From a virus (Duplodnaviria; Heunggongvirae; Uroviricota; Caudoviricetes), in the IMG/VR virus record IMGVR_UViG_2706794692_000009: 5,725 nt of DNA; one strand, 5' to 3'. The position numbers and the translations under genes are program-made. Below are positions 200-823 of this stretch, piece by piece (position 1 is the first letter of the stretch; every line of letters starts with the position of its first letter). The notes beneath the pieces were generated by a model, which was given only the letters and a program-made list of their open reading frames with translations, ran no database searches and was not told the DNA's origin.

Positions 200-392
200 G
201 GTTCTTTCCACCATCTGAAAAATAATTCTTTAAAATACCTGACATGTAATACAGAAAAAACACAAAACCATACCTTAAATAAAAACCTGATTATCAAGCA
301 GATATGCATGGATAAACTACAAGACGAGATATAAACCACCCTGCATTTAAATAAACAATAAACAACATCAGAAAAATAATTCTGCTCTATGG

Positions 393-419
393 TTTACATT
401 CAAAAATATCATTTATACT
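393..419 (+). promoter_or_regulatory. candidate sigma70 promoter for ORF 460..795 (TTTACA, 15 nt spacer, TATACT)
   Basis: TTTACA at 393-398 and TATACT at 414-419, about 40 nt upstream of the ORF start. The spacer is short and the region is AT-rich, so a chance match is quite possible. Confidence 0.2.
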
Positions 420-459
420 TTTCAGAACATCACCAGCAAGGCATAAACAAGGAAACTAA

Positions 460-795
460 ATGAAGTGGATTGTGATTGATACAGTTATCCAGCCATCATG
501 CGGAATATCTTTTTCAGTCATATGGAGTAAAATAAAATTAATAATCTGGTATCAATCGGATGCTTTCTTACCTCCTGAAAGTATATTTACACTGACTCAC
601 ACAGGCATCATGCTCAATAACAAAGTGCTACCTGTAACCATTTACAACGTAGTACCATTCAATAAAACATTCTGGAATTCAATCAAAAATAGCCAGGAAT
701 GCCCTACAAATACAGATAACGTATTGAATGAATGCTTTAATAACCGTTGCACTCTGCAAATATGTCCTTATGGACTAAAACAACAAAGTCCATAA
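460..795 (+). CDS. hypothetical protein, 111 aa, opposite strand to the phage operon, in AT-rich DNA
   Basis: A 111-codon open frame in visibly AT-rich sequence, where stop codons are frequent. Good ribosome-binding site AAGGAA at 449-454, 5 nt before ATG 460. No recognisable domain; several Cys and Trp. Confidence 0.35.
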
Positions 796-798
796 GGA
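765..798. repeat. perfect 12-bp inverted repeat (tccttatggact / agtccataagga) with 10-nt loop
   Basis: Arms 765-776 and 787-798 are exact reverse complements. No T-run follows on either strand, so it is not a classical intrinsic terminator. It overlaps the stop codon (793-795) of ORF 460..795, and AGGAG follows at 795-799. Confidence 0.6.
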
Positions 799-823
799 GT
801 TTACTCACATCTGACAAAATCAA

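What the first reader, a model, noticed from the sequence alone, without database searches (positions are those of the whole stretch)
220..823. AT-rich block with an opposite-strand ORF and a 12-bp perfect inverted repeat at its 3' end
Directly seen: the region is markedly more AT-rich than the neighbouring phage genes. It holds a 111-codon plus-strand ORF with a strong ribosome-binding site, transcribed against the late operon. A perfect 12-bp inverted repeat (765-798) overlaps its stop codon and is followed by AGGAG, and another frame starting at 747 runs into the N-run. Inference: compositional contrast plus opposite orientation is typical of horizontally acquired morons with their own promoter. 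The inverted repeat could be an RNA stability element, a protein-binding site or a recombination site, and a second gene may begin inside the masked stretch.
Basis: partly seen in the sequence, partly recalled or inferred. Interest (0 to 1): 0.5.

Follow-up and report, generated by a model that had tools for sequence, protein, structure and literature searches.

The report
Prophage-borne iraL anti-adaptor gene cassette
The AT-rich block is the already characterised gene iraL, a small prophage-carried protein that blocks RssB and so protects the stress sigma factor RpoS from degradation; the inverted repeat at its end is a real but lineage-specific stem-loop whose function is untested.

Summary
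The 111-codon ORF (460-795, +) is iraL, the RssB anti-adaptor described in uropathogenic E. coli CFT073 and Shigella (Hryckowian 2014). It differs from CFT073 IraL by one residue, passes the NCBIfam IraM model (162 bits, cutoff 121) and matches the IraM crystal structure chain (E=6e-31). The published 5'-RACE start site lies at position 427. The ORF is intact in 97/97 sampled copies and under purifying selection (dN/dS 0.13-0.28). The roughly 620-bp, 32% GC cassette sits in the late region of a lambdoid prophage, between a convergent STnc100 sRNA and the DUF1737/nanS-p gene, and points against late transcription. It is absent from otherwise similar prophages, so "moron with its own promoter" is supported. 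The 12-bp inverted repeat is non-random (-17.5 kcal/mol, z -5.1; 7/5000 simulations). It is confined to the iraL clade, decays without compensation in the 88% and 75% variants, and lacks a U-tract. I read it as a probable 3' stabilising stem-loop of iraL mRNA (inferred) or a neutral quasi-palindrome. AGGAG is part of the stem, not a ribosome-binding site. In 94/94 unmasked relatives the flank runs straight into the STnc100 terminator, so no second gene starts there.

The parts
1..71 (.). Right end of an IS3-family insertion sequence that truncates the DUF1737/nanS-p gene (context; it sets the left limit of the locus)
   Evidence: In L027/L041 the same 77 nt follow a transposase C-terminus and abut unrelated DNA. 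Shigella sonnei-type loci L014-L020 have an rve transposase directly abutting DUF1737.
26..199 (-). DUF1737 ORF, the N-terminal remnant of the nanS-p esterase gene. It is the first late gene downstream of the cassette in the late direction. The annotated start in relatives corresponds to the ATG at 197-199.
   Evidence: Pfam PF08410, E=1.5e-15. RefSeq annotation in L001/L002/L005, where the intact gene is a 617-aa SASA esterase.
200..426 (+). AT-rich (30% GC) upstream region of iraL. Homology with iraL-less prophages ends at 200.
   Evidence: This is the most polymorphic part of the cassette (38 of 227 sites among 30 haplotypes).
209..229 (+). Copy 1 of a 21-nt direct repeat (CACCATCTGAAAAATAATTCT)
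   Evidence: 0 of 200 shuffles give two matches. Function unknown.
363..383 (+). Copy 2 of the 21-nt direct repeat (2 mismatches), at -64 to -44 relative to the iraL start site
   Evidence: Retained in the 88% and 75% variants.
393..419 (+). iraL sigma-70 promoter: -35 TTTACA (393-398), 15-nt spacer, -10 TATACT (414-419)
   Evidence: Positioned from the mapped start site (PMC4045071) and read directly from the sequence. Population variants at position 397 match the paper's '-35 point mutation' in JJ1886 iraL2. The consensus scan missed it because the spacer is 15 nt.
427..459 (+). iraL 5' UTR (33 nt) starting at the published 5'-RACE start site; Shine-Dalgarno AAGGA at 449-453
   Evidence: The RACE sequence ACATCACCAGCAAGGCATAAACAAGGAAACCA matches window 427-458 with one mismatch (T at 457).
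460..795 (+). iraL coding sequence (111 aa): RssB anti-adaptor of the IraM/IraL family
   Evidence: NCBIfam NF007393, 162 bits against a cutoff of 121. PDB 8twd IraM, E=6.3e-31. One residue differs from CFT073 IraL. dN/dS 0.13-0.28. 97 of 97 copies intact.
765..798 (+). Perfect 12-bp inverted repeat with a 10-nt loop. The left arm encodes the invariant C-P-Y-G-L motif and the right arm contains the stop codon.
   Evidence: The core 10 bp are kept in 97 of 97 iraL copies. It decays in the 88% and 75% variants and is absent in iraM.
799..823 (+). Conserved 3' flank. In relatives it is the T-rich region just downstream of the convergent STnc100 terminator, read on the minus strand.
   Evidence: 0 of 25 polymorphic sites. 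It is followed by the STnc100 terminator in 94 of 94 relatives.
1130..1319 (-). STnc100 sRNA gene, convergent with iraL (context). In typical loci it lies about 35 nt from the iraL stop codon.
   Evidence: Rfam RF02076, 123.6 bits against a gathering score of 47. Terminator-like site at 1159-1141.

Best explanation
Region 200-823 is the iraL cassette of a lambdoid prophage. It is a self-contained unit with its own promoter, placed in the late region between the convergent STnc100 sRNA and the DUF1737/nanS-p gene, and it is transcribed against the Q-dependent late transcript.

Shown for the CFT073 allele, which differs by one residue: a sigma-70 promoter fires at position 427 during exponential growth. 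The 111-aa IraL protein binds the adaptor RssB, so RssB can no longer hand sigma-S (RpoS) to the ClpXP protease. Sigma-S and its regulon therefore stay elevated in log phase.

By homology with the IraM-RssB crystal structure: the N-terminal ~78 residues form a PmrD-like beta-barrel that bridges both RssB domains and occludes the sigma-S binding face.

Inferred, probability about 0.4: the 12-bp inverted repeat across the stop codon folds in the iraL mRNA as a 3' stem-loop. It has no U-tract, so it is not a classical terminator. More likely it marks the point to which 3' exonucleases trim a transcript that otherwise runs antisense into STnc100, and so it sets the mRNA's 3' end and half-life.
For: Identity of the gene:
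- RefSeq names the ORF 'anti-adapter protein IraM' in about 2000 of 5426 complete E. coli genomes, including CFT073.
- NCBIfam NF007393 scores 162 bits against a cutoff of 121. PDB 8twd scores E=6e-31 over residues 1-78.
- One substitution (S74L) separates it from CFT073 IraL; identity to K-12 IraM is about 61%.
- The published start-site sequence is present at 427.

Coding status:
- dN/dS is 0.13-0.28 against eight diverged homologues.
- 97 of 97 copies are intact.
- 10 of the 14 RssB-contact residues of IraM are identical and the other four are conservative changes.

Moron status:
- GC is 0.32 against 0.49.
- The cassette is absent from L004 and from 933W-type phages.
- The whole cassette is homologous in the 88% and 75% variants at the same slot.
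- PMC4045071 shows a sigma-S stability effect and RssB interaction.

Hairpin:
- -17.5 kcal/mol, z = -5.1.
- The core stem is kept in 97 of 97 copies, and the common A774G variant gives a G.U pair, which keeps the stem only in the plus-strand RNA.
Against: Nothing found contradicts the gene identity. The S74 allele itself has not been assayed as far as the papers read here show, although it is the allele found in Shigella sonnei-type genomes, and the 2014 paper did test S. sonnei.

Against the hairpin role:
- No U-tract follows it.
- It is not conserved in the 88% and 75% variants or in iraM, and TAT->TAC changes in the left arm are uncompensated.
- There are no compensatory double changes among 30 haplotypes.
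- Its polymorphism density (0.118) is higher than that of the CDS (0.033).
- The left arm is constrained anyway, because it encodes the invariant CPYG motif.
Confidence: 0.9

Rival explanations
1. The inverted repeat has no function. It is a quasi-palindrome that became perfect in the iraL lineage, for example by replication template switching, and it also created the four-codon QQSP extension.
For: The 111-aa forms (iraL and the 88% and 75% variants) all carry ...GTCCATAA... after the PYGL codons, but only the iraL clade pairs perfectly. The 107-aa forms stop right after GLK. There is no covariation, and the repeat is not more conserved than the CDS.
Against: The core 10-bp stem is retained in all 97 copies, and the only frequent variant preserves pairing. 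With so little divergence in the clade, this is weak evidence.
Confidence: 0.4
2. The inverted repeat is the intrinsic (Rho-independent) terminator of iraL.
For: It is a stable stem-loop immediately at the end of the ORF. No other terminator-like site on the plus strand was found between 795 and 1400.
Against: The stem is followed by GUUUACUCAC, only 3 U's. The loop is 10 nt. The stem is AT-rich (5 GC pairs of 12). The site fails the terminator scan. K-12 iraM instead has a canonical GC-rich terminator with a T-run about 70 nt downstream.
Confidence: 0.12
3. The inverted repeat is a DNA-level site: an operator for a dimeric protein, or a recombination site that marks the cassette boundary.
For: It is a perfect palindrome with arm centres 22 bp apart. 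It lies about 25 bp from where homology with alternative cassettes resumes.
Against: The common A774G variant breaks DNA symmetry but keeps RNA pairing. The repeat is degenerate in the 88% and 75% cassettes, which sit in the same slot. The candidate flanking motif CATCWGAMAAAAT did not exceed chance. No recombinase is associated with the cassette.
Confidence: 0.04
4. The block is non-coding AT-rich spacer and the ORF is spurious.
For: AT-rich DNA often yields chance ORFs. My Pfam scan gave no significant hit.
Against: 97 of 97 copies are intact. dN/dS is 0.13-0.28. There are NCBIfam, PDB and PHROG matches, and the product has been characterised experimentally.
Confidence: 0.01
5. A second plus-strand gene, translated from the AGGAG at 795-799 or from the frame opening at 747, begins in or runs into the masked stretch 824-1073.
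For: The AGGAG motif, and an open frame through the N-run.
Against: No start codon lies within 24 nt of AGGAG. The 747 frame is 50 aa in L101. In 94 of 94 relatives the flank continues into the STnc100 terminator. The 64 nt after the mask (1074-1137) are preceded in L004/L027/L041 by another minus-strand module that carries a terminator, not by a gene.
Confidence: 0.03

Closest known systems
IraL of E. coli CFT073 (c1429) and Shigella sonnei (Hryckowian et al. 2014, mBio, PMC4045071)
   Same: 110 of 111 residues are identical. The promoter, start-site sequence and 33-nt 5' UTR are the same with two base differences. The prophage position is the same: between the STnc100/DUF3927/tRNA region and DUF1737-holin.
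   Different: The window has S74 instead of L74, which is the Shigella sonnei-type allele. An IS element truncates the neighbouring DUF1737 gene. About 310 extra, mostly masked bases separate the iraL flank from STnc100, an arrangement not seen in 5426 complete E. coli genomes.
IraM (YcgW) of E. coli K-12, the Mg2+-starvation-induced RssB anti-adaptor; structure 8TWD
   Same: Same family (about 61% aa identity). Residues 1-78 align without gaps to the crystallised PmrD-like domain. Most RssB-contact residues are conserved, as are four invariant cysteines and the ICPYG motif in the tail.
   Different: IraM is 107 aa and lacks the QQSP extension and the perfect stop-codon hairpin. It lies next to the e14 element, not in a late region, and has a canonical terminator about 70 nt downstream. 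Its promoter region is unrelated. The inducing condition differs according to the literature.
IraL-like gene of Stx2c/Stx2a-converting phages (e.g. phage 2851, phage 1717)
   Same: 111 aa, 71-75% identical. The whole cassette is homologous, including the promoter region and the 3' flank. It has the same orientation and abuts nanS-p in the same way.
   Different: It lies directly next to stxB. The hairpin is degraded to about 6 bp. Most phage records leave it unannotated. I found no functional study of it in the papers read.
Classical lambdoid morons (bor and lom of lambda; stxAB of Stx phages)
   Same: An extra, compositionally distinct gene with its own promoter, inserted between conserved phage genes, expressed in the lysogen, and variably present among related phages.
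   Different: iraL is antisense to the late operon and has no canonical terminator of its own. Its product rewires host sigma-factor proteolysis rather than acting at the cell surface or as a toxin.

Membership tests
IraM/IraL family of RssB anti-adaptors | Sequence scores above the curated cutoff of the family model (NCBIfam NF007393) | tested here: met
   162 bits against a cutoff of 121, covering 1-110 of the protein and 1-113 of 114 model positions.
IraM/IraL family of RssB anti-adaptors | N-terminal PmrD-like beta-barrel domain (IraM residues 1-78, PDB 8TWD) | tested here: inconclusive
   By sequence, residues 1-78 align gap-free to 8twd_A with E=6.3e-31, so the fold is inferred by homology. 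The independent AlphaFold model was unusable (mean pLDDT 39), although its strand and helix order fits.
IraM/IraL family of RssB anti-adaptors | Conservation of the RssB-contacting residues (IraM I4, I6, W22, K26, I42; T13, C14, F18, W30, L75; I61, Y62, H63, I64) | tested here: met
   10 of 14 are identical. The others are S13, I75, N63 and V64, all conservative or family-typical.
IraM/IraL family of RssB anti-adaptors | Binds RssB and stabilises sigma-S against ClpXP | not testable with these tools
   Shown for CFT073 IraL (one residue different) and by deletion in S. sonnei (PMC4045071). Not assayed for this exact allele in what I read.
iraL (as distinct from iraM) | Near-identity to CFT073 iraL, including its promoter and mapped transcription start; the 2014 paper reports >=96% identity of the promoter region among iraL strains | tested here: met
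   110 of 111 aa. The RACE sequence matches at 427-458 with one mismatch. The -35 and -10 elements are identical to CFT073.
Phage moron | Lies between conserved phage genes and is present or absent among otherwise collinear phages | tested here: met
   It sits between STnc100/tRNAs/Q and DUF1737-holin. It is absent in L004 and in 933W-type Stx2 phages, where only the nanS-p start matches.
Phage moron | Own promoter active in the lysogen | tested here: met
   The promoter and start-site sequence are present. Activity was shown in CFT073 by the cited paper, not here.
Phage moron | Own transcription terminator | tested here: inconclusive
   Only the stop-codon hairpin is available, and it has no U-tract. 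The nearest strong hairpin downstream is the terminator of the convergent sRNA.
Phage moron | Base composition distinct from flanking phage genes | tested here: met
   GC 0.32 against 0.48-0.53.
Rho-independent terminator (for the inverted repeat) | GC-rich stem, short loop, followed by a U-tract | tested here: not met
   5 GC pairs of 12, a 10-nt loop and only 3 U's after the stem. It is not reported by the terminator scan.

The most novel reading that the evidence does not exclude
The stop-codon stem-loop is a functional RNA element specific to the iraL lineage. It would fix the 3' end and half-life of iraL mRNA and insulate the lysogen-expressed anti-adaptor from the convergent STnc100 sRNA and the Q-dependent late transcript, so that prophage induction shuts iraL off by antisense transcription. 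More broadly, the IraL-type cassette would be an ancient, fixed-slot moron of lambdoid phages, including Stx2c/Stx2a phages where it abuts stxB, through which phages tune host RpoS levels.
Probability: 0.25. Interest if true: 0.35.

Novelty: already known. Interest (0 to 1): 0.15.

Why it matters
This shows that the finding is ordinary. The gene, its promoter and its biochemical role were published in 2014, and RefSeq annotates it routinely.

Three smaller points remain useful:
- Phage-centred resources still list the protein as function unknown (phrog_4407), and most Stx2c/Stx2a phage records leave the 71-75% variant next to stxB unannotated. An RpoS-stabilising gene adjacent to Shiga toxin genes is therefore easy to overlook.
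- The whole cassette, not just the ORF, occupies one fixed slot of lambdoid late regions and points against late transcription. That suggests a built-in switch between lysogenic expression and lytic shut-off.
- The stop-codon hairpin is a simple, testable candidate for controlling IraL dosage.

Tried and rejected
1. Unmasking 824-1073.
- No complete E. coli genome has iraL within about 900 bp of the 64-nt stretch 1074-1137.
- Gapped exact-pattern scans of viral and metagenome contigs found nothing.
- The species-representative genomes do not contain the window's arrangement.
- Exact-protein look-up gave Shigella sonnei-type loci without the extra DNA.
- The content of the mask can therefore only be inferred from relatives.

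2. Structure prediction from the 12-sequence alignment gave mean pLDDT 39, so no fold search was run.

3. My Pfam scan gave no significant hit, although the protein database lists PF11183 (PmrD) as precomputed for the family. I did not resolve the discrepancy and relied on NCBIfam and PDB instead.

4. The consensus promoter scan did not find the real promoter, because its spacer is 15 nt. The two sites it did report are at chance level.

5. Covariation support for the hairpin was sought in eight diverged homologues and 97 iraL copies. None was found.

6. A hairpin conserved across the family was considered because the Citrobacter homologue also folds across its stop codon. I rejected it because the sequences are not homologous there and the intermediate members lack it.

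7. A flanking direct-repeat motif (CATCWGAMAAAAT) was considered as a cassette insertion footprint. Only one match occurs per locus, none in L092, and it is not above chance.

8. I looked for a PhoP box by eye, since iraM is PhoP-regulated. Only one half-site (GGTTTA, 391-396) is present, so I did not pursue it.

Full report
**Observation**

The block 220-823 is AT-rich: GC is 0.32, against 0.48 to its left and 0.49 for the rest of the window.

It contains one long plus-strand ORF (460-795, 111 aa, ATG start), with AAGGA 6 nt upstream of the start codon.

Every recognisable phage gene in the window is on the minus strand:
- a Q antiterminator with DnaJ-type zinc fingers (4099-4920);
- a 65-aa ORF;
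- an N6/N4 DNA methylase (2468-3526);
- two tRNAs (2352-2427 and 2175-2251);
- a DUF1737 ORF (26-214).

The ORF therefore opposes late transcription.

The inverted repeat is exactly as described: arms 765-776 and 787-798, 12/12 complementary, a 10-nt loop, and the TAA stop codon inside the right arm. It is not a chance feature.
- Only 7 of 5000 composition-matched simulations of the block, and 11 of 1000 of the whole window, contain such a repeat.
- The RNA hairpin is -17.5 kcal/mol, z = -5.1.

Two details need correcting.
- AGGAG (795-799) is part of the stem, and no start codon follows it.
- The frame opening at 747 is long only because N's translate as X. In an unmasked locus identical to window 1-823 it is 50 aa.

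**What it is**

A megablast of 150-823 hits 2009 of 5426 complete E. coli genomes at 95-99.6% identity. The ORF is annotated there as 'anti-adapter protein IraM'.

The protein evidence agrees:
- NCBIfam NF007393 (IraM) scores 162 bits against a cutoff of 121.
- The crystallised IraM fragment (8TWD) matches with E = 6e-31 over residues 1-78.

One of the hits is CFT073. The CFT073 gene is iraL (c1429), characterised by Hryckowian et al. 2014 (PMC4045071). [quoted passage not shown] It has a sigma-70 promoter and a 5'-RACE start site at ACATCACCAGCAAGGCATAAACAAGGAAACCA.

That sequence is at window 427-458 with one mismatch, which gives the same 33-nt 5' UTR. The -10 element (TATACT, 414-419) and the -35 element (TTTACA, 393-398) are identical to CFT073.

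The window protein differs from CFT073 IraL at one residue, S74L. The S74 allele is the one found in Shigella sonnei-type genomes.

**The ORF is a real gene**

- All 97 iraL-clade copies fetched are intact at 111 aa.
- dN/dS against eight homologues of 54-88% identity is 0.13-0.28.
- Ten of the fourteen IraM residues that contact RssB in the crystal structure are identical, and the other four are conservative changes.

**Moron status**

Homology with a similar prophage that lacks iraL (ATCC 11775, L004) stops at window 200. That is exactly the start codon of DUF1737/nanS-p. In 933W-type Stx2 phages only that nanS-p start matches.

On the other side, 94 of 94 relatives continue from ...ACAAAATCAA directly into TATAAACAGCCCCTCCGGAGAGGGGCTGG. 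This is the terminator of a convergent STnc100 sRNA (Rfam RF02076).

The cassette is therefore about 620 bp (200-823).

The entire cassette, meaning the upstream region, promoter, ORF and 3' flank, is homologous in two diverged variants that sit at the same slot in the same orientation:
- an 88% variant, between nanS-p and DUF3927;
- a 75% variant, between nanS-p and stxB in Shiga-toxin prophages.

Other family members at 60-65% identity also sit in lambdoid late regions.

**The inverted repeat**

The left arm encodes C-P-Y-G-L, an invariant motif of the family. The right arm supplies S-P-stop. That is the four-codon extension which distinguishes the 111-aa forms from the 107-aa IraM-type forms.

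Population data from 97 iraL copies (30 haplotypes) show that the core 10 bp always pair. The variants are:
- A774G, in 41 of 97 copies; it is synonymous and gives a G.U pair, which preserves the stem only in plus-strand RNA;
- T765C and G797C, which open the outer pairs;
- one change in the loop.

Several observations argue against strong selection on the structure.
- There are no compensatory double changes.
- Polymorphism density in the hairpin (0.118) is higher than in the CDS (0.033).
- In the 88% and 75% variants the stem decays through an uncompensated TAT->TAC change plus right-arm changes.
- iraM-type genes do not share it.

It is not a canonical terminator. It has a 10-nt loop, 5 GC pairs of 12 and only three U's after the stem, and the terminator scan does not report it.

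My preferred reading, inferred at about 0.4, is a 3' stem-loop that protects and defines the end of the monocistronic iraL mRNA, which otherwise runs antisense into STnc100. The main rival, also at about 0.4, is a neutral quasi-palindrome perfected in this lineage. I found no support for a DNA-level binding or recombination site. A candidate flanking motif did not exceed chance.

**The masked stretch**

In all relatives identical to the window through position 823, only 4 nt separate window position 823 from the sequence equivalent to 1138. The window therefore carries about 310 extra bases, of which 250 are masked.

The 64 unmasked bases (1074-1137) occur in 346 E. coli genomes immediately upstream of an STnc100 copy. 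In L004, L027 and L041 they are preceded by another minus-strand module that carries a terminator.

This zone is a known nursery of prophage sRNAs, namely STnc100/PasD and PasA/C (bioRxiv 10.64898/2026.05.13.724894).

The most economical guess is that the mask hides a tandem sRNA module, starting with the STnc100-type terminator that follows iraL everywhere else.

A scaffold gap is an alternative. IMG/VR scaffolds of near-identical strains break at exactly these repeat boundaries.

I could not find the window's exact arrangement in any collection. Nothing suggests that a plus-strand gene starts there.

**Comparison and novelty**

This is a member of the IraM/IraL family and specifically iraL. 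The gene, its promoter and its function are already known.

Three observations do not appear in the papers I read:
- the stop-codon hairpin;
- the fixed late-region slot of the whole cassette family;
- the frequent, mostly unannotated presence of a 71-75% variant next to stxB in Stx2c/Stx2a phages (41 of 46 phage records with a hit).

These are modest additions, and the overall interest is low.

Noticed in passing
L092/L093 2501-2836; phage records H90-H124 (e.g. phage 2851, phage 1717): A 111-aa IraL-like gene, 71-75% identical, sits between stxB and nanS-p in Stx2c/Stx2a-converting phages, antisense to stx. In most of the 41 phage records it is not annotated at all.
   Followed up: partly
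window 1130-1319 (-): STnc100 sRNA gene (Rfam RF02076, 123.6 bits), convergent with iraL. Related prophages carry one to two copies plus other terminator-bearing modules here (L004 3070-3279 and 3557-3747).
   Followed up: partly
window 824-1073 and 1399-1597 (N-runs): Both N-runs are longer than the corresponding DNA in all relatives (314 nt against 4, and 199 nt against 40). The second lies inside the DUF3927 ORF and keeps its frame, giving 96 aa against 43 aa in L101. These may be real insertions or scaffold gaps.
   Followed up: partly
window 1-71: Right end of an IS3-family element inserted into the DUF1737/nanS-p gene. The same 77 nt abut a different site 2 kb away in L027/L041, which is typical of IS-rich Shigella sonnei-like genomes.
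   Followed up: partly
window 700-792 (IraL residues 81-105): The C-terminal tail, removed for crystallography and described as less conserved, has four invariant cysteines (C81, C92, C97, C102) and an invariant ICPYG motif across the 12 aligned family members. A metal-binding knuckle is possible.
   Followed up: no
window 209-229 and 363-383: A 21-nt direct repeat (2 mismatches; 0 of 200 shuffles give two matches). One copy is at the DUF1737 start and the other at -64 to -44 of the iraL promoter. The core AAYAATTCT is kept in the diverged cassettes. It may be a regulator site.
   Followed up: partly
window 460-792: PHROGs lists this family (phrog_4407, E=3e-72) as 'unknown function', although IraL was characterised in 2014.
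   Followed up: yes
L012 3001-3321 (Citrobacter sp. ANG330): A 54%-identical family member occurs in a Citrobacter genome, outside the Escherichia/Shigella range stated in the 2014 paper. L013 (E. coli ECGI0523) carries a frameshifted iraM-like pseudogene of 52 aa.
   Followed up: no
window 3619-3649: A second perfect 12-bp inverted repeat (GGCTGGTGGGTG / CACCCACCAGCC, 7-nt loop), GC-rich and without a T-run, lies between the 65-aa ORF and the methylase gene.
   Followed up: no
window 3990-4098 (-): Read directly from the sequence: just downstream of Q on the minus strand there is a promoter-like TTGATT...TAAATT and a strong terminator (AACCCGCCGCCGAGCGGGTTTTTTAT). This is a likely pR'/tR' late-promoter unit, which would place the methylase, tRNAs and antisense iraL under Q control.
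   Followed up: no
window 2352-2427 (-): ARAGORN calls this tRNA-Met (CAT), but RefSeq annotates the identical gene in relatives as tRNA-Ile (a lysidine-modified CAT anticodon, ileZ-like), as in Stx phages.
   Followed up: no
window 1711-2064 (-): A 117-aa ORF matches phrog_2873 (E=4e-70, unknown function) and is present in only some relatives (L021).
   Followed up: no
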